Below, piece by piece: positions 48,171 to 64,000 of a DNA stretch of 64,000 nt. Source of the DNA: Eledone cirrhosa. Taxonomy: Eukaryota. Positions within the stretch are counted from its first letter, which is position 1, and every line of letters starts with the position of its first letter. The notes beneath the pieces were generated by a model. The model searched no databases, had not been told where the DNA came from, and saw only the letters and a program-made list of their open reading frames with translations. A program made the position numbers and the translations under genes. Location: positions 11,346,001 through 11,410,000 of the forward strand of contig OZ024740.1 in NCBI GenBank assembly GCA_964016885.1. The letters are read 5' to 3'.

Positions 48171-48772
48171 TATGGTGGTGATGGTGATGGTGGTGATGGT
48201 GGTGGGGATTGTGCTGGTGGTGTTGGTGATGATGATAGTGTTGGTGGTGGTGGTGATTGTGGTGATGATAGTGGTGGTGGTGATGATGATAGTGGTGGTG
48301 GTGGTGGTAGTGATAGTGGTGGTCGTGGTCCTGGTGGTGGTGGTGATGATAGTGGTGGTGGTGGTGGTGATGATGATAGTGGTGGTGGTGGTGATGGTGA
48401 TTGTGGTGGTGGTGGTGGTGGTAGTGATAGTGGTGGTCGTGGTCCTGGTGGTGGTGGTGGTGGTGGTGATGATAGTGGTGGTGGTGATGATAGTGGTGGT
48501 GGTAGTGGTGATGATGATAGTGGTGGTGGTGGTGATGGTGATTGTGGTGGTGGTGGTGGTGGTAGTGATAGTGGTGGTTGTGGTCCTGGTGGTGGTGGTG
48601 GTGGTGGTGGTGTTGGTGATGATAGTGGTGGTGGTGGTGGTGGTGGTGGTGATGATAGTGGTGGTGGTGGTGGCGATGATGATAGTGGTGGTGGTGGTGA
48701 TGCACAAGGAAGGGCAACAGAAATAACGCCACCACCACCGCCACCACCACTATCACCACCACCACCACCACT
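48171..48772. repeat. Degenerate (GGT)n/(GAT)n compound microsatellite, followed by a short inverted (ACC)n tract at 48729-48772
   Basis: ggtggtggtgatgatagtggt runs. The marker ggtagtgatagtggtggt(c/t)gtggtcctgg occurs three times (~48306, 48420, 48561). Confidence 0.93.
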
Positions 48773-49016
48773 ACATGTCTTGTGTTCACCTTCTATTCGG
48801 TTTGTTTACTTCGTTTTTTCCTCTTTCCCTTTTTTCTTTCTTCCTCTCTCTTCACTATCAATTCTTTCCTCCGTGGCCTTTTGATGGATAAAAGGCCTCG
48901 GGCGCGCTGCCGATCGATGCCCTGTTTTTAAGCGCCGAAACATATCTATGATCCGCAGTAATCAGCTGATGAAGGGCTACTTTGCTTCTCTTGTTTATGT
49001 CCCTATTACCATCTTA

Positions 49017-49050
<34 letters not shown>

Positions 49051-49317
49051 GGAAAAAATGAAACGAAATTTCATTTCTCACTCTTAGTACGGCTGTTACT
49101 TAAATATAAGTATGTATACGTACATACATATATGTATACAGACGTACAGTAGTATGTATATATATATACATACATGCACACATATATATATATATGTACG
49201 TATGGATTCACCGAACATTTATTATAATGCTCGGTGTGTTTGTAAACAAACATCCCGAATTAAGCCGTACAGTGTCAAGCAACCATCGTTGCTCATTTGT
49301 TCAACACTGACAAAGGA

Positions 49318-49360
49318 ACGCTGTACTAGTTTCAAGCTTATTAGCTATCGTCAGCAACGT
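49318..49360 (-). ncRNA. Minimal type I hammerhead ribozyme (family A)
   Basis: Minus strand reads ACGUUG CUGACGA UAGCU AAUA AGCUU GAAA CUAG UA^ CAGCGU: 6-bp stem I, canonical core, 4-bp stem II closed by U.U, palindromic stem III ACUAGU, GUA triplet. Confidence 0.88.
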
Positions 49361-49872
49361 ATACCTTCCTGCCAGATGGTTGAACGTCTGAAAGTATATA
49401 CCTTCCTTATGCATATTAACGGCTGAGCAGCCAAATTTGTATATCCAGTGAGTTAATCGGCCGGGTTACCGAAAACGATAAACGGCAAAAATGAAATGAA
49501 ATTTCATTTCTCACTCTTAGTACGGCAGTTACTTAAATATAAGTATGTATACGTACATACATATATGTATACAGACGTACAGTAGTATGTATATATACAT
49601 ATATGCACACATATATATATGTACGTATGGATTCACCGAACATTTATTATAATGCTCGGTGTGTTTGTAAACAAACATCCCGAATTAAGCCGTACAGTGT
49701 TTAGCAACCATCGTTGCTCATTTGTTCAACACTGACATTCATTTTTTCCGTTTATCGTTTTCGGTACCGCGGCCGATTAACTCACTCGATATGCAAATTA
49801 GGCTGCTCCGCCGTTAATATGCATAAGGAAGGTATATATTTTCAGACGTTCAACCATCTGGCAGGAAGGTAT

Positions 49873-49915
49873 ACGTTGCTGACGATAGCTAATAAGCTTT
49901 AAACTAGTACAGGGT
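49873..49915 (+). ncRNA. Hammerhead family A, inactivated copy
   Basis: acgttg ctgacga tagctaataagctt TAAA ctag ta caggg: G12 is mutated to U. Confidence 0.75.
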
Positions 49916-50118
49916 TCCTTTGTCAGTGTTGAACAAATGAGCAACGATGGTTGCTAGACACTGTACGGCTTAATTCGGGATGTTTGTTTACAAACACACC
50001 GAGCATTATAATAAATGTTCGGTGAATCCATACGAACATATATATATGTGTGCATGTATGTGTATATATATACATACTACTGTACGTCTGTATACATATA
50101 TGTATGTATGTATACATA

Positions 50119-50192
<74 letters not shown>

Positions 50193-50425
50193 TTAGAAAC
50201 ACACAGATACATGCGGACACACACATATATACATGAATGCATCCGCACCCAACTGTGAGTTAAGGGTGCCAACTTCACCGATGTTGCTCAATGAATGACT
50301 GGGACAGACCAATTCAGTTGAACCAGACTGAACCAGTATCAGAGTTAAAAATACATTATGAAGAGAGAAGAAACATTTAGATATAATTAGTAATAAAATG
50401 TATCATACCTAAACTGTTCCTAAAT

Positions 50426-50515
50426 TCCTCGACTACGTAGTTTCGTGGCATAAACAAAAACAATATATCATAAAGACATAGAGTCCTTGCGAGGTCTGCC
50501 GACTTATCAAGAGGA
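50426..50515 (-). ncRNA. Hammerhead family B (U3-A8 variant), inverted copy
   Basis: Reverse complement of 51348-51437 with core and stems intact. Confidence 0.8.
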
Positions 50516-51347
50516 TACCTCATTTTACTAGTCTCAAGAACGCGTCTACACGACGTGAGAAAGAATCCCAAAAGGCGGAGGGGGAGATAGTCACGCGATA
50601 TAACGGTCGAGAAACAGAGCTAAGCCTCTTATAACCCCGAAGAAAATACCACGGAGGCGGAGGGGGTATTTATATCGAGGCCGTAGAAGAGGTGGCGAAG
50701 AAGGCGAGAAGTATGAGTAATGGAAGCTATCCAGCTGTCCCCACACTTCAAAGATTGCTCGACCAGAGGGAGTTATTAACAATATATTTGGAAACACACA
50801 GATACATGCGGACACACACATATATACATGAATGCATCCGCACCCAAGGAGCAGTTTAGGTATGATACATTTTATTACTAATTATATCTAAATGTTTCTT
50901 CTCTCTTCATAATGTATTTTTAACTCTGATACTGGTTCAGTCTGGTTCAACTGAATTGGTCTGTCCCAGTCATTCATTGAGCAACATCGGTGAAGTTGGC
51001 ACCCTTAACTCACAGTTGGGTGCGGATGCATTCATGTATATATGTGTGTGTCCGCATGTATCTGTGTGTTTCTAAATATATTGTTAATAACTCCCTCTGG
51101 TCGAGCAATCTTTGAAGTGTGGGGACAGCTGGATAGCTTCCATTACTCATACTTCTCGCCTTCTTCGCCACCTCTTCTACGGCCTCGATATAAATACCCC
51201 CTCCGCCTCCGTGGTATTTTCTTCGGGGTTATAAGAGGCTTAGCTCTGTTTCTCGACCGTTATATCGCGTGACTATCTCCCCCTCCCCCTTTTGGGATTC
51301 TTTCTCACGTCGTGTAGACGCGTTCTTGAGACTAGTAAAATGAGGTA

Positions 51348-51437
51348 TCCTCTTGATAAGTCGGCAGACCTCGCAAGGACTCTATGTCTTTATGATATAT
51401 TGTTTTTGTTTATGCCACGAAACTACGTAGTCGAGGA
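51348..51437 (+). ncRNA. Type I hammerhead ribozyme family B, U3-A8 core variant, long stem II
   Basis: UCCUC UUGAUAA GUcGGCA..(~45 nt)..UGCCAC GAAA CUACGUAG UC^ GAGGA: 5-bp stem I, palindromic stem III ACUACGUAGU, GUC triplet. Confidence 0.82.
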
Positions 51438-51506
51438 ATTTAGGAGCAGTTTAGGTATGATACATTTTATTACTAATTATATCTAAATGTTTCTTCTCTC
51501 TTCATA

Positions 51507-51540
<34 letters not shown>

Positions 51541-51544
<4 letters not shown>

Positions 51545-53047
51545 ATACTTTGGGAGGGTCATGTTGCCAATAAGAAACACACGCACCAGTTGCTTTCACT
51601 TCAATTTATTATAATAAATTTATAAATTTAGGAATTTATAAATTTCCTGTTGGTTGGTTGGTTCCACAACCAGATGGTTGTTTATATATTGTCAAAGTTC
51701 TTTCGTCACACATTCTGTGACCTCTTCAGTGACTGGGGGTTCTTTTCTTTGTTTTTGTGCCTCTCCTTTGTTCTGTCCTACGCCATCTTGTTTTTGTGTG
51801 TGTGTGTTGTTTGCTTAGTTTGCGCATGTGTTACATCCGGGTGTCTGTGTGTGTTTATATTCGTTTATTTATTTGTTTATTTACTTGTTACTGGTTGGTT
51901 GTTTGTTCTATGTGCGTGTGTGTTTTCATTTTGTCCTTAATTGTAAGTTGTGATGTTGCTGTTCCACTCATGTTTTCTATTTAATTTTGGTTGTAATTCA
52001 TTTATGTTTATTGCCTCTGTGATTTGTCTAAACATTGCGTCTTTTCTGTGTGTAGATTCTATTTTTATTTCTATGTTCTCTAATTTACCCTTATGTTCTA
52101 TTTTAGCATGTTGGTAGAGTACAGATGATTCTTTACTATCTTGAAGGTCTCGCCAGTGTTCATTTATCCGTTCCCCTATACTACGAGCTGTCTCAACTAT
52201 GTACACTATATTTTTATCTCTACATTCTCCTTCAGTACATCTTATGCTATATACTACATTTCTAGTTTTACAGTTAATATGGGGGCTTAATTTACAGATT
52301 ATACATTTCTTATCTATACAGGGAGGTCTTTGAAAAGGGTGTCTTGCTAATAAGTGTTTTTATGGAGGTACCTGGTCTTTCTACTATCTTAATATTGAGT
52401 TTATGTTTATCTAGGGTCCTTCTAAATTTGTAAGCTAATTCACCTCTAGGGGTTGTATCGATGAACATTACACTCTGGTATTTATTGCTATCATACCATG
52501 AGTTTATTCTATTAGCCTTATTCCTAGTTCTTTCTATTCTATTCCAAAATGTGTTCCTATACAAGGAGCAGGTCCCATTTGTGTCATTATTTACCATTTT
52601 TTTCCCATTTGGTTCTGGCTCCTCTATACACTCTGATTTTATCTCTCTGATTGTAACCAGAGAACTGCATACGGTGGATGAAGTGTTGTATGTGTCTCTC
52701 TAGTTCTTCAGGGTTGCACATGCGGGACACGTTTCTCATCACCCGTACCAAATCCGCAATCAGTATGTTCATTTTGGTATGGTCCGAAACAGCTGAGTTT
52801 CGGTGGATCAGATAATTGGAAGTCATGGGTTTGGCATAATGGGAATGGATAATTTGTTTTTGGTTATTAATGGTATCTAACCAGAGCTCTGTGTCTAGTA
52901 CAGGTTATCGATGGTTGGGGTGTTTGCTTGGGTAGTCTATAGTAACTCTCATACTCTGGTGGATGGAGTTAACTATTTGCTGGATGCTTTCCATGAAGTG
53001 TTGTATGTGTCTCTCTAGTTCTTCAGGGTTGCACATGCGGGACACGT
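51541..53047 (-). mobile_element. Penelope-like retroelement, 5'-truncated inverted copy (RT C-terminal part, GIY-YIG, 3' UTR), frameshifted
   Basis: Minus-strand ORF pieces 52587-52826, 52310-52597 and 51937-52206 match the + copy protein. The 3' end abuts (TA)n at 51540. Confidence 0.93.
51691..51733 (-). ncRNA. Hammerhead of the PLE 3' UTR, inverted copy
   Basis: Reverse complement of 54803-54845. Confidence 0.72.
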
Positions 53048-53080
53048 AGATAATTATTACTATATGTATAGTAATATATA

Positions 53081-54613
53081 CTTAAACTTACCTATAGTAA
53101 TAATTATCTAGACACATATGACCTTAGCAACCTGTGCCCTACAAGACCAGCAAGAGGCAGACCACCTACCATTACCTCAATGGCCAAGGAAACCCACACA
53201 GATAGATGGAACGGGTAGACCAGAGCCATACGGACCCCCGAAAAGCACGATGAACTAAAGAAAATGATTGCACATGCGGTGGGGGCCAGCATAAAATTAA
53301 CGCTTAAGGAACATATGTTCAAATTTAATGGAAAAACATATGGCCAAGAGGAGGGAGCAGCCATTGGTGTTAGCATTGCAGGTGACATAGCTAACTTATT
53401 CATGGTATGGTGGGACAGTAGACTTAAACTTAAACTTAAAGAACAATTAGAAGACCCCTTAACCCTGATAATGTACTCCCGCTACGTTGATGATATAAAC
53501 ATCTTAGTTAAAACACCCCCACTAGAGAACAGTCAAGAATTAGAGAAAAACACAATGGAAAGCATCCAGCAAATAGCTAACTCCATCCACCAGAGTATTA
53601 GAGTTACTATAGACTACCCAAGCAAACACCCCAACCATCGATTACCTGTACTAGACACAGAGCTCTGGTTAGATACCATTAATAACCAAAAACAAATCCT
53701 CCATTCCCATTATGCCAAACCCATGACTTCCAAATATCTGATCCACCAAAACTCAGCTGTTTCGGACCATACCAAAATGAACATACTGATTGCGGATTTG
53801 GTACGGGTGATGAGAAACGTATCCCGCATGTGCAACCCTGAAGAACTAGAGAGACACATACAACACTTCATCCACCGTATGCAGTTCTCTGGTTACAATC
53901 AGAGAGATAAAATCAGAGTGTATAGAGGAGCCAGAACCAAATGGGAAAAAATGGTAAATAATGACACAAATGGGACCTACCCCTTGTATAGGAACACATT
54001 TTGGAATAGAATATAAAGAACTAGGAATAAGGCTAATAGAATAAACTCATGGTATGATAGCAATAAATACCAGAGTGTAATGTTCATCGATACAACCCCT
54101 AGAGGTGAATTAGCTTACAAATTTAGAAGGACCCTAGATAAACATAAACTCAATATTAAGATAGTAGAAAGACCAGGTACCTCCATAAAAACACTTATTA
54201 GCAAGACATACCCTTTTCAAAGACCTCCCTGTATAGATAAGAAATGTATAATCTGTAAATTAAGCCCCCATATTAACTGTAAAACTAGAAATGTAGTATA
54301 TAGCATAAGATGTACTGAAGGAGAATGTAGAGATAAAAATATAGTGTACATAGGTGAGACAGCTCGTAGTATAGGGGAACGGATAAATGAACACTGGCGA
54401 GACCTTCAAGATAGTAAAGAATCATCTGTACTCTACCAACATGCTAAAATAGAACATAAGGGTAAATTAGAGAACATAGAAATAAAAATAGAATCTACAC
54501 ACAGAAAAGACGCAATGTTTAGACAAATCACAGAGGCAATAAACATAAATGAATTACAACCAAAATTAAATAGAAAACATGAGTGGAACAGCAACATCAC
54601 AACTTACAATTAA
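53081..54613 (+). pseudogene. PLE reverse transcriptase plus GIY-YIG endonuclease, 5'-truncated, with in-frame stops at 53216 (TAG) and 54014 (TAA)
   Basis: Motifs FKFNGKTYGQEEGAAIG..ANLFM, YSRYVDD, LPVLD, HYAKP, the Cys-rich linker CIDKKCIICK..NCKT, and NVVYSIRC..C..YIGETAR..ERINEH..H..H..RQITEA. The inverted copy has GAA (Glu) where this copy has TAA. Confidence 0.93.
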
Positions 54614-54802
54614 GGACAAAATGAAAACACACACGCACGTAGAACAAACAACCAACCAGTAACATGTAAATAAACGAATATAAACACAAACAGACACCTG
54701 AATGTAACACATGCGCAAACTAAGCACACAACACACACACAAAAACAAGATGGCGTAGGACAGAACAAAGGAGAGGCACAAAAAACAAAGAAAAGAACCC
54801 CA

Positions 54803-54845
54803 GTCACTGAAGAGGTCACAGAATGTGTGACGAAAGAACTTTGAC
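54803..54845 (+). ncRNA. Minimal type I hammerhead in the PLE 3' UTR
   Basis: GUCA CUGAAGA G GUCACA GAAUG UGUGAC GAAA GAAC UU^ UGAC: 4-bp stem I, one extra G after A9, 6-bp stem II, very short non-palindromic stem III. Confidence 0.75.
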
Positions 54846-55051
54846 AATATATAAACAACCATCTGGTTGTGGAACCAACCAACCAACAGGAAATTTATAA
54901 ATTCCTAAATTTATGAATTTATTATAATAAATTGAAGTGAAAGCAACTGGTGCGTGTGTTTATTATTGGCAACATGACCCTCCCAAAGTATAACAATATC
55001 GGTTTCAACACACGTTTTCAGATAAAGAATCTTGCTAAACAAATTCAGAAA

Positions 55052-55094
<43 letters not shown>

Positions 55095-55348
55095 TGTAAT
55101 AAACAACATAAGGCAATTATTTCATTTACCAGTAAGCTCTGTAACATACATAGAGCACTCTTTTTTCCTGGACCTTTCCGACGGAATTACTTCATATATA
55201 TATATATATATTAGAAAGTGAGGTTTTTTTTACAAATTGAAAAATAACCGAGGTGTCCTACACGAGTGAAAGTATAAAGAAAAAGAGATGAAATCGAAAA
55301 TGCAACTGGAGTCTTATTTTTTTTTTAAATATATATATTTATTTGGTT

Positions 55349-55386
55349 CCTTTACCGGTTTTGCAGTTCTTCTGCTTTTCAAAAGG
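55349..55386 (-). ncRNA. Hammerhead family C, inactivated copy (GAAA to AAAA at a CpG)
   Basis: Reverse complement of 55478-55515 with tttcgc changed to ttttgc. Confidence 0.75.
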
Positions 55387-55477
55387 TGAGTTGACATGGA
55401 GAGTCTGTGGTTTTTCTCACATCTGGTGAGAAAAATGTGAGATGTGAGAAAAACCACAGACCCTCCATCTCAACTCA

Positions 55478-55515
55478 CCTTTTGAAAAGCAGAAGAACTG
55501 CGAAACCGGTAAAGG
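55478..55515 (+). ncRNA. 38-nt minimal type I hammerhead family C, U3-A8 variant
   Basis: CCUU UUGAAAA GCAG AAGAA CUGC GAAA CCGG UA^ AAGG: all three stems pair perfectly; palindromic stem III ACCGGU. Confidence 0.87.
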
Positions 55516-55583
55516 AACCAAATAAATATATATATTTTTTAAAAAAAATAAGACTCCAGACTCCAGTTGCATTTTCGATTTCA

Positions 55584-55649
<66 letters not shown>

Positions 55650-55771
55650 TTAGTTAAGCAAAATAGGACCACGAATTTCACAAGGAAGACATTAAAAGAT
55701 TGTCAAAATATTTTAGTTTGATGTAAGGAATGTAGAGAATAATAATAATAATATTAATAATAATAATGTCT

Positions 55772-55890
55772 GTTTACAATTGTTTCGCTACTCCATATAA
55801 TATTTCTGGATCAGATGACTATATATCATTATTTATCTGGTTCAGTTGAAAATAATTAACATATTTAAAAACAGAGCGGCTCATCGGAAC
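55772..55890 (-). ncRNA. Hammerhead-like motif family D (core CCGAUGA, ~95-nt stem II region)
   Basis: Minus strand GUU CCGAUGA GCcGCUCUG...UGGAGUaGC GAAA CAAUUG UA^ AAC; palindromic stem III ACAAUUGU; stem I only 3 bp. Confidence 0.62.
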
Positions 55891-56077
55891 TTCAAAGGAA
55901 TAAATTAAAATAAGGAGATACCCATAGGCAGATCTCACACAATGCAGCCTCGACAGATGAATACTGCTTGATTATGGCTGACAACTGATACAACCAGGTC
56001 ACCATAGTGAAATACCAATATATGGAACATTACATTATGTAACATTCTCTCCTTATTTTAATTTATATTCCTTTGAA

Positions 56078-56196
56078 GTTCCGATGAGCCGCTCTGTTTT
56101 TAAATATGTTAATTATTTTCAACTGAACCAGATCAATAATGATATATAGTCACCTGATCCAGAAATATTATATGGATTAGCGAAACAATTGTAAAT
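56078..56196 (+). ncRNA. Hammerhead-like motif family D, second arm
   Basis: gtt ccgatga gccgctctg...tggattagc gaaa caattg ta aat. Confidence 0.58.
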
Positions 56197-56499
56197 GGAC
56201 ATTATTATTATTAATATTATTATTATTATTCTCTACATTTCTTACATCAAACTAAAATATGTTGACAATCTTTTAATAATGTCTTCCTTGTGAAATTCGT
56301 GGTCTTGTTTTGCTTAACTAATGAATATTTCCAGCTCTGCGCGCCTAACTTCTGCATGAACCCAGCCACCTAGCTGCTTTCTACTGCATATTGCACATTG
56401 AGCACATGCCTTTACGCTTTGGCTTCTAACTAATTCACGAATCTCTCCTCTCTTATCTCCTTCTCTCCCTTTAAGATTGGTTACTCTTGAATTGTGTAT

Positions 56500-56755
56500 A
56501 TATATACAGTGTATTTTGCAATACACTGTATGCTTAATTAAAAGCATTTTGAAGACCTTACGCTATTGTTTTAGAGTAGTGACAGTCTCACTTACTTTAA
56601 ATTTTCAGCAAAAAGGGGGAGATAAAGCTTTATCTCCCCCTGTTTGCTGAAAATTTAAAGTAAGTGAGACTGTCACTACTCTAAAACAATAGCGTAAGGT
56701 CTTCAAAATGCTTTTAATTAAGTGTACAGTGTATTGCAAAATACACTATATATAC
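56500..56755. repeat. Spacer-less ~256-bp palindrome centred on AAAG|CTTT (56627/56628), element E
   Basis: Arms are reverse complements with few mismatches; each arm contains a further hairpin TACAGTGTATT-TTGC-AATACACTGTA. No convincing HHR seen. Confidence 0.9.
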
Positions 56756-56973
56756 ATTCCTATATATATCGCTATTTCAGAGCACCAATTCTAATATATA
56801 TATACACACATATATATATATATAATTATAAGTTTGAAGAACAGTCAGACAAAATATATCCAATTTTTCTTCTCCTTAGTAAAAATTAACTAGACAAATA
56901 ATCAATTAAACGGAGCTAAATCTAAAATGCAAGTTTGAAGAAAAATTGTATATCAACTTTACCAAAGTCCTTC

Positions 56974-57078
56974 TAGTCCTGACTATCGATAGTTTCACTC
57001 GTACTTTGTGGATATGTCCAATCCTGGTTATTATCCATGAGGTTTCGAGCTTCTAAAGAGACTCCCTCAAGAGGACTA
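56974..57078 (-). ncRNA. Degenerate hammerhead candidate (family F) in a ~350-bp fragment between (TA)n runs
   Basis: Minus strand GAAA CUAUCGAUAG UC^ AGGACUA with palindromic stem III and a 7-bp partner UAGUCCU upstream. The CUGANGA box is degenerate (CUUGAGG or UUUAGAA). Confidence 0.45.
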
Positions 57079-57212
57079 ACATTTCTACAGTGATCGCCGC
57101 CAGAAATAAATTCAAAATGGGTAAGAACTATCACGTGGTTAGCGGTCAGAGAAGGGTGGCAGGTATGTTTCCTGATATATATATATATACCCATTTTCTA
57201 CTAGCATTTCAA

Positions 57213-57274
57213 GGGGTCCGTCGAGCCGCAGATTACAGAGTCGAGTAAGATCGATACAGATTGAACCTTGAGTT
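57213..57274 (+). mobile_element. Fragment of a diverged relative of element H (5' half of its hammerhead)
   Basis: ggtccgtcgagccgcagattacagagtcgagtaagatcgatacagattgaaccttgag aligns with 58156-58213. Confidence 0.7.
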
Positions 57275-57293
57275 ATATATATATATATATATG

Positions 57294-57324
<31 letters not shown>

Positions 57325-57468
57325 ATGGAAGGAATTTGTAGTATACTTGAAGCATTGTATATGGTATAAAGAATTAAAAGTTTGAAAGCCACAACAATGC
57401 AGGTTTGGACGGGGATAATTAAATGGTAAGAAACTGGGGTTGTTTTTTTACCTTAATTTATTCATATG

Positions 57469-57506
57469 TCCTGATATTTCGAGATTAATATCTCTTCTTC
57501 CGAGGA
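57469..57506 (-). ncRNA. 38-nt minimal type I hammerhead family G (core CGGAAGA, extra A after A9) within a ~280-bp fragment (57327-57605)
   Basis: Minus strand UCCU CGGAAGA A GAGAU AUUA AUCUC GAAA UA UC^ AGGA; palindromic stem III AUAU. Confidence 0.72.
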
Positions 57507-57811
57507 AAATAAAGGAACTATTCCAGTGTCCGATGTGGCTTGTTATACACATATATAGTTGTAGGAACAAACGAAAGAGTAATCAAGATAATGTGGAAGT
57601 TGAGTATATATATATATCTAATATATAAATAATTAATAACAATATACCGTATTTGCCGGCCTATTGGACGCTCCCTCTTTTTTAAATTATATTTTACGTT
57701 ATATTTTGACGTTTATAGGCATTTTTATGGACCACATCAAATATTGGCAGTTTTTCACTCTCCGTGGGTTCTCTAGGAACATAACCCCCGCCAATACCGG
57801 GGGACTACTAT

Positions 57812-57886
<75 letters not shown>

Positions 57887-58007
57887 GTTGACGGGATTAG
57901 CATAAGGTTTCCCTGCTAGTACTGGGTTGCATCTCATATATATATATATATAATAAAATAAAATAAAAGAAGGACGAGTGGTTACTCCTTCATTACGTTT
58001 ATTAGTT

Positions 58008-58092
58008 GGTGACGCGCGTTTCGCCACCGATCAGCTCAAGGTTCGATCTGTATCGATCTTGCCCGACTCTGTAATCAATGGCTCTTCGAACC
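58008..58092 (-). ncRNA. Hammerhead family H (core YCGANGA, long stem II)
   Basis: Minus strand GGU UCGAAGA GCCAUUGAUU...GAUCGGUGGC GAAA CGCGCG UC^ ACC: 10-bp stem II base, palindromic stem III ACGCGCGU. Confidence 0.7.
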
Positions 58093-58155
58093 TCTTTGGT
58101 GGTAATGATAGAATTCTATCATTACCACCATGAAATCTATCATTACCACCAAAGA

Positions 58156-58240
58156 AGTCCGACGAGCCATTGATTACAAAGTCGGGCTAGATTGATACAG
58201 ATCGAACCTTGAGCTGATTGGTGGTGAAACGCGCATCACC
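58156..58240 (+). ncRNA. Hammerhead family H, second arm (core CCGACGA, CpG-decayed stems)
   Basis: agt ccgacga gccattgatt...gattggtggt gaaa cgcgca tc acc. Confidence 0.65.
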
Positions 58241-58394
58241 AACTAATAAACGTAATGACGGAGTAACCACTCGTCCTTCTTTTATTTTATTTTATTTTAT
58301 TATATATATATATGAGATGCAACCCAGTACTAGCAGGGAAACCTTATGCTAATCCCGTCAACTTCACACACATATATATATATATATATATATT

Positions 58395-59273
58395 TCGTTT
58401 CTGAATTTGTTTAGCAAGATTCTTTATCTGAAAACGTGTGTTGAAACCGATATTGTTATACTTTGGGAGGGTTATGTTGCCAATAAGAAACAAACGCACC
58501 AGTTGCTTTCATTCCAATTTATTATAAATTAAATTATAAATAAAAAAATTTTTTAAAAATGTATAATACAACCCCTAGAGGTGAACTAGCTTACAAATTT
58601 AGAAGGGCCCTAGATAAACTTAAACTAAATATTGAGATAGTGGAAAGACCAGGTACCTCCATAAAAACACTTATTAGTAATACATACCCTTTTCAAAGAC
58701 CTCCCTGTATAGATAAGAATATAATGTACATAGGTGAGACAGCTCGTATAGGAGAACGATTAAATGAACACTGGCGAAAGCTTCAAGATAGAAAAGACTC
58801 ATCAGTACTCCACCAACATGCTAAAATAGAACATAAGGGCAAATTAGAGAACATAGAAATAAAAATAGAATCTACACACAGAAAAGACGCAATGTTTAGA
58901 CAAATCACAGAGGCAATAAACATAAATGAACTCCAACCAAAATTAAATAGAAAACATGAATGGAATAGCAACATCACAACTTACAATTAAGGACAAAATG
59001 AAAACACACACGCACATAGAACAAACAACCAACCAGTAACATGTAAATAAACAAATAAAAACACAGAGACACCCGAATGTAACACATGCGCAAACTAAGC
59101 ACACAACACACACAAAAACAAGATGGCGTAGGACAGAACAAAGGAGTGGCACAAAACAAAGAAAAGAATCCCCGGTCACTGATGAGGTCACAGAATGTGT
59201 GACGAAAGAACCTTGACAATATATGAACAACCGTCCGGTTGTGGAACCAACCAGCCAACCGGAAATTTATAAA
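58395..59273. mobile_element. Third, more diverged PLE copy: 3' tail on - (58395-~58545) plus endonuclease and 3' UTR segment on + (58566-59273)
   Basis: ORF 58559-58990 matches 54080-54613 with a 32-codon deletion. 58395-58530 is the reverse complement of ~54915-55054. Confidence 0.92.
59175..59217 (+). ncRNA. PLE 3' UTR hammerhead, third copy (CUGAUGA core, U16.1 mutated to C)
   Basis: gtca ctgatga g gtcaca gaatg tgtgac gaaa gaac ct tgac. Confidence 0.68.
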
Positions 59274-59632
59274 AAATGTTATATATATATATATGTGTGT
59301 GAGTGTACAGATAAGTCGCTAGCAACATATACTTACAGACACACACACGCACTTTTTCCGCTTCGTATATATATGCGTATGTGTGCGCGCGCGCTTATTG
59401 TTTGTTTATGTTCCCTACTTCGCGGTTCGACAAATAGAGATCGATAAGACTTGATAAAATAACTGGTGGGTTCGATAAATATGCACACACACACACATAT
59501 TCATGAAGAGTGAGAGGTAGGGGGGACAAGCATGTTTTCAGTGTAGTACACGTATAGACACATAGTCACACACATGTACATAGACGTACACACACATATT
59601 CATTCATAAACACTGAGTTTTAGTGTTTATGA

Positions 59633-59735
59633 ATGAGTGTGTGCATGTGTATGAGTGTGTGCATGTGTATGAGTGTGTGCATGTGTATGAGTGTGTGCAT
59701 GTGTATGAGTGTGTGCATGTGTATGAGTGTGTGTG
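59633..59735. repeat. 18-bp tandem repeat (ATGAGTGTGTGCATGTGT) x ~5.5, preceded by a 14-bp-stem hairpin at 59601-59635
   Basis: Seen directly; it produces the ECVHVY repeat ORF. Confidence 0.9.
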
Positions 59736-60462
59736 TAAGAAACCGAGCCAGAGAGGGAGATTGTTTCGGTATTTATCAATGAGGATGCCTGTTTATAACC
59801 ACTCCCTCTGCCTTTTTATCTATCTATATATTCATCTATAGATATCTACCCTCTCATAGCTATGTGTACCCCTCTCTCTGTATCTATCTATTTATCCATC
59901 TATCTATGTAACTACCTATCCATCTATCTACATATCTATCTTCCTACCTATCTATATTCCCATACACACTGCGAGAGTGTCTATTTCACATATTCACACA
60001 AACATACACATTCACATACACACACCACATAACCACATACACGAACAAGTACAAACATATATGCATACGCACACGCAATCTGTCTCACATATTCATACAA
60101 ATACACACACCTACTATATTTCACACTCACACATAGATATCGATACACACTGACACAGTCATATACAGAGGTTTACTACAAACTATTATTGATTATATAT
60201 CATCAACCATGAAACAACTATCATCCCCACTGTTTATACATTTTCCGTTGTGATTTATAGTGGCGTGTGATATCAGATTATATATTTTCACTGATCTTTT
60301 TTCACTGAAAATTTATCTGCACATTTAGAGGTTACAGGTTAAATGTTAATATCTGACCGACTCTTTCTTTCTTCTTTCCCCACGCCGCCAAGTTGGGCCT
60401 TCAAAGATTGACGATGGCGACCGCCATAGCTTTCTGTTCTCAGTTTGTGTTGCTATTGCACG

Positions 60463-60880
60463 GACGCTGCATGGCTGTGTGGTTAAGAAGTTCGTTTCAT
60501 AGTCGTGAGGTTCTAGGTTTGGTTCTACAGTGTGGCAGACCTGTCAACTTTTCCCGGGGTATTTGCAATAGCCTTTGGGGTGGGTAAGAGATGTCTTTTG
60601 TGAAAATGAGTACAGCTTTCATTATGTAAAATCTCCCCATTTTGGGGCACATTTTTCATGTTTGGGTTTTTAGAGGTTGACAGGTCTGCCATCTTGGGAA
60701 AGTGTCCTCCAGCTCTACTGTACCGTACTGAATCTCCCTGAGAATGACACTAATATTCACTTATTTTCACTCTAATAAAAGATGGACTACATGTGCAATT
60801 CAAACATCCAGCTTTGTCACGCTGAATTTCCTAGAGAATTGTGTTAAGGGTACCCATATTTGTGGCATATTTAACCAAAA
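60463..60880 (+). mobile_element. Degenerate tRNA-derived SINE, interrupted by a MITE
   Basis: A-box-like tggctgtgtggttaagaag, degenerate B-box region, cttgggaaagtgtc, and later gtcacgctgaatttcctagagaattgtgttaagggtac. Resembles octopus SINEs as recalled. Confidence 0.6.
60534..60690. mobile_element. MITE-like element, 157 bp, with perfect 15-bp terminal inverted repeats GGCAGACCTGTCAAC
   Basis: TIRs at 60534-60548 and 60676-60690 split the SINE motif gtgg|catcttggg. Target-site duplication is ambiguous. Confidence 0.75.
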
Positions 60881-60919
60881 TAAGCCAGATGAATTCTTCA
60901 ACACAACTGTATTACACAG

Positions 60920-61470
60920 AAAAATGGCAACCATCAACCACATAGATATAAAGGTAAAATATGTAATATCAGTCATAGATGAAATGAAACCAAATTAGCA
61001 GCTAGCCCTGATGGTCTCCCAGCAATCCTAAAAACCTGCAAGTGAACATTAGCAAAAACAATGCATATACTCTTACAAAGATTCCTTGCAAATGGTAAAC
61101 TAAAAAAAGGCATAATATATCCTATCTATAAAAGAGGAAGCAGAGTAGGTGCTAAAAACTACTGGCCTGTCTTCCTGACCTCACATACCAGCAAAGTCAT
61201 GGAACGAATCATCAGAAGGAAACTGATAATTTTGCCCAGGTAGAAGTTGTCTTACGCAGCTCTTACAGCATTATGACTGAATACTCAAAGAGTTGCTAGA
61301 CAGTTTGAACGTAGATGTGATATATCTTGACTTGTAAAAGCCTTGAACAAGGTTGATCATGGAACGAAATTCACAAACTACATAGCTGGATCACTAGGTG
61401 AATGGCTTCATGACTTCTCGAAAGAAGTGTCAATAACAAGAGGCATGTCCCAGAGAACTGTCTAGAGGTC
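60920..61470 (+). pseudogene. Degraded CR1-like LINE reverse-transcriptase fragment
   Basis: Translated motifs A.SPDGLPA.ILK, IYPIYKRGSR..AKNYWPVFLTSHTSKVMERII, GRSCLTQLL, VDVIYLD..KALNKVDH, with stops and frameshifts. Confidence 0.85.
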
Positions 61471-61614
61471 GCTACTGTAAAGAAACAACAGCACATGTTC
61501 GGCCATTCCCCTGTATCAAGAAAATGACAAGTTTTTTCCAAGGAAGCTTTTTGATTTTTTAATTTAAAGATTTGTTGAGGAACTTTGAATGTTTTCAAGT
61601 TTTTATAGGTTTTC

Positions 61615-61726
61615 CTGTCTGAAGAGCTCAGGCTGTCACAACTGATAGTTCTCAGTGAAATATGTATAACGTCTGAAGAGCTCAGGCTATCACAATTGAT
61701 AGTTCTCAGTGAACTATGTATAACAG
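61615..61726 (+). ncRNA. Two tandem 54-bp copies of a decayed minimal hammerhead (family I)
   Basis: CUGU CUGAAGA GCUcAGG CUAUCA CAAU UGAUAG uUCUcAGU GAAA UAUGUA UA^ ACAG; units 61617-61670 and 61671-61724. Stem III AUAUGUAU is one CpG transition from the palindrome AUACGUAU. The second copy has GAAC. Confidence 0.68.
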
Positions 61727-61789
61727 AGTTTTGAATAAACCTGAATCAACTGATTATGGCCCCCGATATTTTAATATTATATATATAAA

Positions 61790-61980
61790 GGGTGGTGAAT
61801 TGGCAGTATCGGTAGAGGGTCGGGTGCCGCCATGCTTTGACATATAGAGTTACGGCCCTTGGCATTCTGAGTTCAAATCCCGCTGAGGTTAACTTTGCCT
61901 TTCACCCTTACGGGGTCGATAAAATAAAGTACCATTGATGCACTGGAATAATTGCTGGCCTGGTGCCAAAAATAAAAACA
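61790..61980 (+). mobile_element. tRNA-derived SINE (octopus OR/CORE-type as recalled)
   Basis: A box tggcagtatcgg, B box gagttcaaatccc, central aactttgcctttcacccttacggggtcgataaaataaagtacca, tail ggcctggtgccaaaa. Confidence 0.72.
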
Positions 61981-62074
61981 ATTACTATATACATACATAT
62001 ATATATACATATATATATATGCACATACATATATATATATATATACACATACATATGTATATACAGACATATAT

Positions 62075-62363
62075 CTCTATATATAAAACTAATGTTGTCT
62101 GTGTGTGTGTGTCATCATTTTTGCAAAGTCTATACAAATCCACATTTCTACTCCAATTGACTTCAAACTTGCATTTATATATTCCTTGCGGTCTAAAGAT
62201 ACTAATTGCCACTTTTATTTTTCAATTTTCTGTTGTTAAAGGGGTGTTAGGCGTCGGTTATCGATCGCCGTCGAGCCCTTATAATATCTGTCTGTATGTC
62301 TGGCTGTCTGACTAACGACATTCTGACGAACACGTCATTGCTGACGTATTATCTTCGCTACAT

Positions 62364-62365
<2 letters not shown>
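62075..62365 (+). mobile_element. Possible non-autonomous Helitron-like remnant
   Basis: Starts TCTATATATAAAA..gtctgtgtg, then ccaattgacttcaaact, resembling invertebrate Helitron 5' ends. No clear 3' CTRR. Confidence 0.3.
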
Positions 62366-62440
<75 letters not shown>

Positions 62441-62457
62441 CTTATATATACATATAT

Positions 62458-62640
62458 ATCATCATCATCATCATCATCATCGTTTAACGTCCATCTTCCA
62501 CGCTTGCATGGATTTGGACGGGAAATTTTCCCACTTGAGGCAAGATTGGTTGTCTTGCTCGTGTAGGACTGTCTGGCGGGTTTTCTACGGCTGGATGCCC
62601 TTCCTAACACCAACCACATTTACAGTGTGGGGCTGGGAAC
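62458..62640 (-). mobile_element. SINE 3' half with RTE-like tail ending in (GAT)n
   Basis: Minus strand GGTTGGTGTTAGGAAGGGCATCCAGCCGTAGAAA central motif and tail ...gaagatggacgttaaacgatgatgat; recalled from mollusc SINEs. Confidence 0.65.
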
Positions 62641-62854
62641 TTTTTACCGTGTTACCTACACGGCCACATTACAGCATGGACTGTGTGTTTTTTTGTCGTG
62701 ACACCTACACGACCTCATTTGTTTCGGACTATATATACATATACACACACATATATACACATATACATATATACATATGCAAACATATACACATATATAG
62801 ATATACACATATACACATATATAAATATACACATAAAAATATATGTATATATAT

Positions 62855-62916
<62 letters not shown>

Positions 62917-62922
<6 letters not shown>

Positions 62923-63552
62923 TGCCCCCTCGTCATCGAGTATGGCTCTTGCACGAGAAAAAAAAAATATATATATATATATTAATAACAATAATAATGA
63001 TTTCATTTATTAGCCACAAGGGCCGACATAATAATAATAACAACAATAATAATAACGATAACAACAACAACAATAATAATATACATATATATATATATAC
63101 ACACACACGCACACACATAAACATATCTATACACACACACACACGATAGCAACTAACAGCGCTGCGATCGAATGTGGCTTTTTAGCCCAGCCAATGATCT
63201 AAAATGTCTTGCACTGAGTCGGGAACCAAAACATTCACTGGGAATAGTCGACTGTGGTTGGAGTTCGTGTACTTTTGCATGTCGCTTGAGCCCTCCTGCT
63301 GATTTACATTCTCTACCACATGTTTGGCAAGCATGATGAATAGCATCTCCAACTGCAGCCTGGTAGTCAACCACTGGTCCTACTTTATGACTGCGAAGAT
63401 GACTTTCGAGTCCAGCTTTGCTTAGGCAGAGTCTCGCACAGACGCTGCATGTCAGCACCATAGGAGGACCCTCACCGTCTGGAAGCAACAGCAATGCCCT
63501 TCCTCACATCCCGCTTTACTTTCTCGTATGCGATTCGAGATGCCTCAAAAGC

Positions 63553-63553
<1 letters not shown>
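62917..63553 (-). mobile_element. RTE-clade LINE 3' end: C-terminal C2H2-like repeats (63153-63553) and probable 3' terminus (62917-62957), split by microsatellites
   Basis: [18 protein letters not shown], then [42 protein letters not shown] and a degenerate third FRSLAGLKSHIRS. The CxxCxRxCxSxxGLxSHxRxH motif is typical of RTE/BovB ORF ends. Confidence 0.72.
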
Positions 63554-63879
<326 letters not shown>

Positions 63880-64000
63880 CGAAGGAAATGTGGTAAGGAA
63901 CCAGGTGGACCATAACGCACCAAAGTACTCAATACTTGAGGTAGTAGAGTGGGTAATAGGAACCAGTAAGACCCCGACAGCTGAGCTCAAGCCGTTTCGA

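What the first reader, a model, noticed from the sequence alone, without database searches (positions are those of the whole stretch)
49047..50123. Element A: 433-nt retrozyme-like unit whose copy begins 11 nt after the ribozyme cut site
Seen: the - arm runs ~1.6 units through one intact HHR. Its 5' end (49737, UGUCAGUG...) maps 11 nt downstream of the predicted GUA^ site (GUA^CAGCGUUCCUU|UGUCAG). The + arm starts at the sequence where the - arm ends (ttcattttttccgttt). Inference: the template was a self-cleaved multimeric or circular non-coding RNA, as in animal non-LTR retrozymes.
Basis: partly seen in the sequence, partly recalled or inferred. Interest (0 to 1): 0.75.

Follow-up and report, generated by a model that had tools for sequence, protein, structure and literature searches.

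The report
Hammerhead retrozyme copy inserted head-to-head
This is a copy of a common animal mobile repeat that carries a self-cutting RNA motif and was probably pasted in by a Penelope-type retrotransposon; the kind is known, and the hint that the ribozyme cut sets where the copy begins remains unproven.

Summary
A 425-433-nt non-coding unit runs 691 nt on the minus strand (49737 to 49047) through one intact type I hammerhead (cut 49324/49323) and 391 nt on the plus strand (49738-50128; hammerhead broken), head-to-head between two (TA)n runs. The minus arm starts 11 nt after the cut; the plus arm starts on the last 18 nt of the minus arm. It is a decayed copy of a high-copy family with helix I changes that keep pairing: a new animal non-LTR retrozyme family. 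A Neptune/Nematis-type Penelope-like element (PLE) 1.4 kb away shares the inverted, TA-targeted layout, which is standard for PLEs. The abutting arms fit twin priming on one linear multimer of about 2.5 units better than a circle, which has no 5' end. Whether cleavage set the 5' end is open: neighbouring element B repeats the pattern (9-10 nt, p about 0.05), but only 1 of 22 arm ends in 11 displayed inversion joints of other copies lies within 15 nt after the cut (1.0 expected; a biased library). No RNA data were available.

The parts
49020..49047 (.). left (TA)n target run; 3' end of the minus arm joins it with a short TAT/TTTAT micro-homology
49047..49312 (-). minus arm, partial unit 2 (266 nt), ends at the left flank
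49313..49737 (-). minus arm, unit 1 (425 nt, 36.5% GC); first letter 49737 lies 11 nt after the cut site in unit coordinates
49307..49375 (-). intact type I hammerhead: core CUGACGA 49354-49348, helix II 4 bp over a U.U pair, GAAA 49333-49330, self-complementary helix III strand (6 nt), cut 49324/49323, helix I 6+4+6 bp
49101..49210 (-). TA-rich hairpin module of the unit (other copies at about 49534-49630 and 50026-50128); source of the 425/433 length difference and of spurious miRNA matches
49737..49738 (.). head-to-head (5' to 5') junction of the two arms, blunt
49738..49755 (+). 18 nt at the start of the plus arm identical to the last 18 nt of the minus arm (49062-49045): twin-priming-type overlap
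49738..50128 (+). plus arm (391 nt): rest of unit 2 and part of unit 3; ends in TATAT micro-homology with the right TA run
49858..49926 (+). broken hammerhead copy (G12 changed at 49900, helix I mismatch at 49913; would-be cut 49909/49910)
50120..50186 (.). right (TA)n run, shared with element B
50186..51512 (.). element B (context): 595-nt unit, head-to-head arms joined at 50847, U3-A8 hammerhead variant; plus arm starts 9-10 nt after its cut site (51432)
51537..55054 (.). Penelope-like element (context): inverted arms, RT (53219-54016) then CX4CxxC linker and GIY-YIG (54017-54613), minimal hammerhead at 54807-54841, TA runs on both sides
58394..59275 (.). second PLE insertion (context): plus arm ends at about element position 54901 and the minus arm starts at about 54909, again abutting

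Best explanation
Element A is one decayed insertion of a high-copy, non-coding tandem repeat with a type I hammerhead in each unit, that is an animal non-LTR retrozyme, mobilised in trans by a Penelope-like RT/GIY-YIG protein. Shown: the unit, the hammerhead fold, the head-to-head arms, the TA target with micro-homology at both 3' ends, the family's abundance and its other head-to-head copies. Inferred: a tandem array is transcribed into multimeric RNA; its hammerheads, with a weak self-complementary helix III, cut slowly or only as dimers, so multimers persist; a PLE protein nicks both strands of a (TA)n run; both 3' ends prime on AU-rich spots of the same RNA (twin priming); the downstream cDNA stops 18 nt past the upstream primer's start, the upstream cDNA runs 691 nt; end joining gives the inverted copy. 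The template was a linear RNA of at least about 1,064 nt (2.5 units). Family identity and PLE mobilisation about 0.8; twin priming on one RNA about 0.6; 5' end set by hammerhead cleavage with 11 nt trimmed about 0.3.
For: Hammerhead anatomy and shuffle control. Unit folds more stably than shuffles, z -8.2 as a circle and -5.2 without the TA hairpin. Family abundance: 64,833 of 12,467,656 reads in X17, 59,661 of 12,785,554 in X18, 9,098 contigs in X1; tandem joints across the unit in X17 and X18; 11 of the 15 displayed joints are strand switches, each in both X17 and X18, with side lengths that fit head-to-head geometry. No core position is among the 40 displayed variant rows; N7 C to U and helix I changes that keep pairing (U.G to G.U at 49357/49321, A-U to U.G at 49367/49313, A-U to G.U at 49366/49314) occur at similar counts in X17/X18 and at equal depth in X9. 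Both arms share a letter at 49402 that 99.8% of X1 depth lacks, so they come from one source. Neighbouring PLE with RT (Pfam E 7e-4, under cut-off), GIY-YIG (E 6e-5, over cut-off) and the same layout; a second PLE insertion also has abutting arms. Craig 2021 (PMC8557442, passages) gives the inverted 5'-truncated copy and TA bias as PLE features; Frangieh 2024 (PMC11167929, main text) shows a PLE protein nicking and extending both strands at AT-rich DNA; Li 2026 (10.64898/2026.07.22.740005, main text) and Cervera 2020 (PMC7229834, results and discussion) tie such repeats to PLEs.
Against: Element A has no homology to the neighbouring PLE's 3' region beyond 12-nt AT-rich matches (E 0.25-0.32), so its partner is not identified. 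Abutting within 20 nt has a chance of about 0.09 for A alone; in B the gap is about 99 nt and in the large PLE both arms start near the same 3' end, which needs two templates or a tandem RNA. The helix I changes are not phased by a call, 114 variant rows are hidden, and 49321 changes in 52% of X1 depth while its partner 49357 changes in 14%, so many copies may mismatch there. Rfam does not score the hammerhead. No TSD can be read in a TA run. Frangieh 2024 found PLE priming without homology to the target, whereas the junctions here show 3-5 nt micro-homology.
Confidence: 0.78

Rival explanations
1. Same element and mobiliser, but the +11 start is ordinary 5' truncation or an RT stall inside the long helix I of an uncleaved RNA; it only happens to lie near the cut.
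For: 1 of 22 arm ends in the 11 displayed inversion joints lies within 15 nt after the cut, 1.0 expected; 9 of 22 lie 15-61 nt before it, so RT often crossed the site. Position 49312 sits at a bulge in the extended helix I. Element C's arms start about 70 nt before its cut. Frangieh 2024: unprocessed RNA is the main substrate in vitro and no RNA-seq reads began or ended at the cut.
Against: Element B, an unrelated family, starts 9-10 nt after its own cut, on the arm that twin priming makes the upstream one (p about 0.05 with a window chosen from A). The library probably under-samples such junctions because their fragments are shorter, and 40 joints were hidden.
Confidence: 0.55
2. The template was a circular monomer copied by rolling-circle reverse transcription (Cervera 2020 model), primed twice.
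For: Retrozymes of coral, mussel and axolotl accumulate as circles (PMC7229834). The unit folds well as a circle. The 26 substitutions in 855 compared positions between units look largely private (5 of the 10 between unit 1 and the plus arm are unit 1 departing from the family majority), so units may have been identical at insertion; B's units differ at 5 of 869 positions.
Against: A circle gives no reason for a 5' end near the cut. On a 433-nt circle one cDNA would have to displace the other for a full turn while the other stops at its start. One unit 1 letter matches a variant at 28% of X1 depth (49276 equivalent), which hints at unlike units in the template.
Confidence: 0.25
3. The two arms are independent cDNAs from two RNA molecules held by a dimeric PLE particle; their abutting is chance.
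For: Craig 2021 describes the inverted arm simply as a 5'-truncated copy; Frangieh 2024 predicts a dimer; in the large PLE both arms start within about 55 nt of the same 3' end.
Against: Arms abut in A (18-nt overlap) and in the second PLE insertion (about 8 nt gap); the overlap carries the unit 2 letter, not the unit 1 letter.
Confidence: 0.3
4. A SINE-like or satellite repeat moved by a LINE with twin priming, or rearranged at DNA level (fold-back, break repair), with the PLE neighbours sharing only a permissive TA-rich region.
For: No sequence link to the neighbouring PLE. Twin priming was proposed for L1 (passage in PMC2246262). The window has other palindromes without a recognised hammerhead (55643-56328, 56498-56757).
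Against: No poly(A) or simple-repeat tail in the unit; both 3' ends are internal and differ; head-to-head joints recur at many positions in other copies; type I hammerheads in tandem units are the PLE/retrozyme hallmark (PMC4209133).
Confidence: 0.1
5. Assembly or library artefact (fold-back read).
For: Region is rich in microsatellites and palindromes.
Against: Arms are offset and differ by 2.3-5.5%, while B's arms differ by under 1%, so the differences are not read error; like joints occur in two independent read sets.
Confidence: 0.03

Closest known systems
Animal non-LTR retrozymes (Cervera and de la Pena 2020, PMC7229834; Li, Clavereau and Pollet 2026, 10.64898/2026.07.22.740005)
   Same: Non-coding tandem unit of a few hundred nt, under 50% GC, one type I hammerhead per unit, strongly self-paired, high copy, co-occurring with PLEs. 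The U.U pair at the base of helix II recalls axolotl HHR_Amex2.
   Different: Unit (425-433 nt) is a little above the 170-400 nt circles reported in 2020 but inside the 150-450 bp and 51-972 bp repeat ranges. Only one hammerhead is intact, so this copy fails Li's 'active' rule. Head-to-head arms with abutting ends are not described in the parts of these papers I read. Cleavage and circles untested.
Penelope-like element insertions, Neptune/Nematis type (Craig 2021, PMC8557442; Cervera 2014, PMC4209133; Frangieh 2024, PMC11167929)
   Same: Partial tandem plus an inverted 5'-truncated copy joined at the 5' end, (TA)n target, no readable TSD, type I hammerhead with palindromic helix III; Cervera 2014 already notes hammerhead pairs 100-700 bp apart on opposite strands.
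   Different: No ORF; hammerhead is canonical-like (6-bp helix I, 4-bp helix II), not minimal; no homology to the neighbouring PLE's terminal region; the two 3' ends are 56 nt apart in the unit, not the 30-40 nt tail.
L1 twin priming (Ostertag and Kazazian 2001; seen only as a passage in PMC2246262, details recalled)
   Same: Two target 3' ends prime on two regions of one RNA; the upstream part ends up inverted and the parts abut in RNA coordinates.
   Different: No poly(A) tail, no L1; target is (TA)n; template is a tandem non-coding RNA.

Membership tests
Type I hammerhead ribozyme | CUGANGA ... GAAA ... UH core with helices I, II, III | tested here: met
   Minus-arm motif complete; GUA triplet; 4 descriptor loci against 0.06 in shuffles. 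Plus-arm copy broken at G12.
Type I hammerhead ribozyme | Match to an Rfam hammerhead model | tested here: not met
   0 at gathering score; none among 83 matches to E 10. The model also missed the PLE's hammerhead in the same stretch, so this is weak.
Type I hammerhead ribozyme | Conservation of core and pairing across copies | tested here: inconclusive
   No core position among 40 displayed variant rows, three pair-keeping helix I changes; but 114 rows hidden, not phased, and 49321/49357 frequencies unequal in X1.
Type I hammerhead ribozyme | Self-cleavage in vitro | not testable with these tools
   Bench test needed; Li 2026 saw cleavage in only 1 of 9 predicted elements.
Animal non-LTR retrozyme | Tandem unit of about 150-450 bp with a type I hammerhead per unit | tested here: met
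   425-433 nt; hammerhead at both unit boundaries present in the copy; tandem joints in other copies.
Animal non-LTR retrozyme | Non-coding, GC under 50%, no LTRs | tested here: met
   36.5% GC; only stop-to-stop frames of 89-112 aa, largely TA-repeat translation, not scanned against Pfam; no terminal direct repeat.
Animal non-LTR retrozyme | Highly self-paired monomer | tested here: met
   Circular MFE -136.8 kcal/mol, z -8.2; z -5.2 without the TA hairpin.
Animal non-LTR retrozyme | Many genomic copies | tested here: met
   0.5% of reads in X17 and X18 and 9,098 contigs in X1 lie on one 346-nt stretch; no copy number can be given; organism A may not be the window's species (share of words 0.54).
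Animal non-LTR retrozyme | 'Active' copy: two consecutive units with complete hammerheads (Li 2026) | tested here: not met
   One intact, one broken. This bears on the copy's activity, not on family identity.
Animal non-LTR retrozyme | Expressed as linear and circular monomer RNA | not testable with these tools
   No RNA holder listed.
Animal non-LTR retrozyme | Large TSD when present | tested here: inconclusive
   Both flanks are (TA)n.
Penelope-like element (autonomous) | RT plus GIY-YIG ORF | tested here: not met
   Absent from element A; present in the neighbour 53219-54613.
PLE-type insertion | Partial tandem with inverted 5'-truncated copy at the 5' end; (TA)n target | tested here: met
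   features from Craig 2021 passages.
PLE-type insertion | 30-40 nt tail from two adjacent RT start sites | tested here: inconclusive
   A's 3' ends are 56 nt apart in the unit, the large PLE's about 55 nt.
PLE pLTR derivative (Li 2026) | Homology of the unit to a PLE terminal repeat | tested here: inconclusive
   None to the one PLE family in the window; no genome held to test other families.

The most novel reading that the evidence does not exclude
Inverted retrozyme insertions record their RNA template: PLE machinery twin-primes one linear multimer whose 5' end was made by hammerhead cleavage, and about 10 nt are lost on joining. Elements A (11 nt) and B (9-10 nt), two unrelated families, would be the first genomic footprints of in vivo hammerhead cleavage defining a PLE-type retrotransposition template, favouring linear multimers over circles and giving a genome-wide way to test what PLE hammerheads are for.
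Probability: 0.22. Interest if true: 0.65.

Novelty: new member of a known kind. Interest (0 to 1): 0.37.

Why it matters
The family itself is one more animal retrozyme. Its value is as a test bed: Craig 2021 calls hammerhead function in endonuclease-bearing PLEs unclear and the origin of their tandem/inverted structures unresolved, Cervera 2020 proposes circular templates, and Frangieh 2024 found uncleaved RNA used in vitro. Mapping arm-to-arm offsets and 5' ends over the many inverted copies of this family would decide between circle, cleaved multimer and uncleaved multimer, and between one and two templates, by computation alone.

Tried and rejected
Rfam: no hammerhead match; the miRNA matches are TA-hairpin noise under their gathering scores. 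No whole genome held, so copies could not be mapped in an assembly. No RNA holder listed. Pattern scans found 0 loci in metagenome contigs and 0 in viral contigs. Earlier findings: nothing by place, words or sequence. About 26,000 loose read ends at 49498-49500 in X17 (22,000 in X18) look like a dominant 3' terminus, but they fall on an AATT, the motif at which library molecules end elsewhere (49258, 49434-49437, 49503), and their continuation is random AT-rich sequence; ligation chimeras cannot be excluded, so I did not use them. I considered that the missing 9-11 nt equal the whole 3' strand of helix I; rejected for A because helix I extends 6 bp further. Pol III origin not pursued: the sense strand has T4-T6 runs. 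The homolog search for the neighbouring RT timed out, so its clade rests on the linker motif only. Paper searches: 'twin priming'+'Penelope' gave 3 papers, none on PLE twin priming by listing; 'Penelope-like'+'pLTR'+'inverted'+'cleavage site' gave 2; 'octopus'+'Penelope'+'hammerhead' gave 5, 4 listed, none describing this family by listing or passages. The library lacks most subscription papers, so this does not show absence from print.

Full report
Setting. The window is animal-type DNA: a 47-kb 24-nt satellite (1-47323), then microsatellite-rich sequence. No genome is held for it. A SINE-like stretch near 61880-61960 reminds me of octopus repeats; that is recalled and was not tested.

Anatomy of element A. 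Between (TA)n runs at 49020-49047 and about 50120-50186 lie two arms joined 5' to 5' at 49737/49738. The minus arm (49737 to 49047, 691 nt) holds unit 1 (425 nt) and 266 nt of unit 2. The plus arm (49738-50128, 391 nt) begins with 18 letters identical to the end of the minus arm, completes unit 2 (433 nt in all) and adds part of unit 3. Both 3' ends join the TA runs through 3-5 nt of micro-homology. Units differ by 6 of 260, 10 of 183, 5 of 204 and 5 of 208 aligned letters, plus (TA)n length changes.

The hammerhead. On the minus arm the core CUGACGA starts at 49354, helix II has 4 pairs over a U.U pair, GAAA lies at 49333-49330, the helix III strand is a 6-nt palindrome, and the cut falls at 49324/49323; helix I runs 6+4+6 pairs. 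Closing helix III within one motif costs 5.4 kcal/mol, while the strand pairs with a second copy at -4.8, the arrangement that Cervera 2014 (PMC4209133, results and discussion read) describes as working in dimers. My descriptor found 4 loci in 48700-64000 against a mean of 0.06 in 100 shuffles. Rfam found no hammerhead. The plus-arm copy has lost G12 and one helix I pair. The minus arm begins at the letter equivalent to 49312, so 11 nt after the cut are absent, with a blunt junction.

The family. 19 runs were listed, 16 holding part of the stretch, none on record as RNA. I laid 4 of them on 49200-49545. The unit is high-copy in organism A (64,833 of 12,467,656 reads in X17; 59,661 of 12,785,554 in X18; 9,098 contigs in X1) with several subfamilies. 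Among the 40 displayed variant rows (114 hidden) none is a core position; N7 varies C to U, and three helix I changes keep pairing, at similar counts in X17/X18 and at equal depth in X9, though no call phased them and in X1 49321 changes more often (52%) than its partner 49357 (14%). Tandem joints occur in X17 and X18. Both arms share a letter at 49402 that 99.8% of X1 depth lacks, which points to one source for both arms, unless the window's species differs from organism A there.

The neighbourhood. 51537-55054 is a Penelope-like element: RT (Pfam RVT_1 E 7e-4, under its cut-off), a CX4CxxC linker and GIY-YIG (E 6e-5, over cut-off; atlas hits 0.97 to eukaryotic clusters, GIY-YIG on 13-18% of members), a minimal hammerhead at 54807-54841, inverted arms and TA flanks. 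By the linker it is Neptune/Nematis type (Craig 2021, PMC8557442, passages); no tree was built. Craig 2021 gives partial tandems, an inverted 5'-truncated copy at the 5' end and TA bias as usual PLE features. So the layout of element A is ordinary for PLE-made insertions. A shares no sequence with this PLE beyond 12-nt AT-rich matches, so the partner is unknown. Li 2026 (bioRxiv, abstract through discussion read; supplements closed) argues that animal retrozymes are non-autonomous PLE derivatives; Cervera 2020 (PMC7229834, part of methods, results and discussion read; supplement not read, its Figure S9 integration model may bear on this) shows circles in coral, mussel and axolotl.

One template or two. 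In A the plus arm starts where the minus arm ends (18-nt overlap; chance about 0.09 for 20 nt either way). In a second PLE insertion (58394-59275) the plus arm ends at about element position 54901 and the minus arm starts at about 54909, in AT-rich sequence that blurs this by some 20 nt. This is the geometry of twin priming, proposed for L1 (passage in PMC2246262; details recalled), and fits a PLE protein that nicks and extends both strands of AT-rich DNA (Frangieh 2024, PMC11167929, main text read). In B the gap is about 99 nt, and in the large PLE both arms start near the same 3' end, so not every case abuts. For A the simplest template is a linear RNA of at least 691+391-18 = 1,064 nt. A monomeric circle is not excluded, since the unit differences may be later decay (5 of 10 differences between unit 1 and the plus arm are unit 1 leaving the family majority), but it needs one cDNA to displace the other for a whole turn, and it has no 5' end to explain +11.

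Does the cut set the 5' end? For: element B (50186-51512, 595-nt unit, U3-A8 core variant as in Cervera 2014) has its plus arm starting 9-10 nt after its own cut at 51432; chance about 0.05 with a 15-nt window chosen from A. Against: of 5 hammerhead-bearing inverted insertions in the window (A, B, C, two PLE insertions) only these 2 show it; C's arms start about 70 nt before its cut. In other copies, 11 of the 15 displayed joints (40 hidden) switch strand, all in both X17 and X18, and their side lengths fit head-to-head geometry (9 clearly, 2 less so). Of their 22 arm ends 1 lies within 15 nt after the cut (49315, 8 nt lost, one of the two less clear joints), 1.0 expected if uniform; 9 lie 15-61 nt before the cut, so RT often read across the site. 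This reduced-representation library probably disfavours the shorter fragments that a +11 junction would give, so the test is weak, but it gives no support. Both A and B also run through apparently intact hammerheads, and Frangieh 2024 found uncleaved RNA to be the main substrate. I put cleavage-defined 5' ends at about 0.3 for this copy, and stalling or chance higher.

Verdict. A real, decayed copy of a new animal non-LTR retrozyme family with PLE-type insertion structure. Membership is met on unit, hammerhead, composition, folding and copy number; cleavage and circles are untested; the copy fails the two-intact-hammerhead rule for 'active' elements. What is of interest is the testable reading that such inverted copies are twin-primed from one linear, possibly ribozyme-cut multimer; I found no such description in the searches, which cover only an open-access library.

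Noticed in passing
window 50186-51512: Element B: second hammerhead tandem family (595-nt unit, U3-A8 core, 10-nt palindromic helix III, long helix II loop), arms over 99% alike, inserted in the same TA run as A; plus arm starts 9-10 nt after its cut.
   Followed up: partly
window 51537-55054 and 58394-59275: Two insertions of one Neptune/Nematis-type PLE family, both inverted and TA-flanked; the ORF in the larger one is 5'-truncated and interrupted by a stop at 54014-54016; its junction (52993-53110) holds a 55-nt template-switch piece and an 18-nt inverted repeat.
   Followed up: partly
window 55278-55594: Element C: near-perfect palindrome with a 15-nt spacer and a minimal hammerhead (U3-A8 core at 55482, cut at 55511) on the plus arm, broken at G12 on the minus arm.
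   Followed up: partly
window 55643-56328, 56498-56757, 57884-58365: Three more palindromic insertions next to TA runs; the last has a GAAA plus 8-nt palindrome plus UC motif at 58022 (minus) without a clear CUGANGA, and a fragment of the same family at 57211-57272.
   Followed up: no
window 1-47323: 47-kb satellite of a 24-nt unit with extreme strand skew (GC skew about 0.97), followed by GGT/GAT-type repeats to 48700; all the inverted insertions cluster just beyond its end.
   Followed up: no
window 49493-49510: 18-nt perfect palindrome in the unit; about 26,000 X17 read ends turn to unlike sequence at its central AATT, either a main 3' terminus of the family or ligation chimeras.
   Followed up: partly
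window 49217-49228 and 54917-54932: A 12-nt AT-rich hairpin-loop word is shared by element A and the PLE 3' region (E 0.25); probably chance, possibly a shared recognition site.
   Followed up: no
window 61617-61724: 54-nt tandem duplication that begins with a CUGAAGAG hammerhead-core-like word; no full hammerhead passed the descriptor.
   Followed up: no
window 60990-61480 and 63153-63503: Decayed LINE RT-like text (recognised by eye) and a minus-strand frame with C2H2 zinc-finger-like motifs typical of LINE 3' ends.
   Followed up: no
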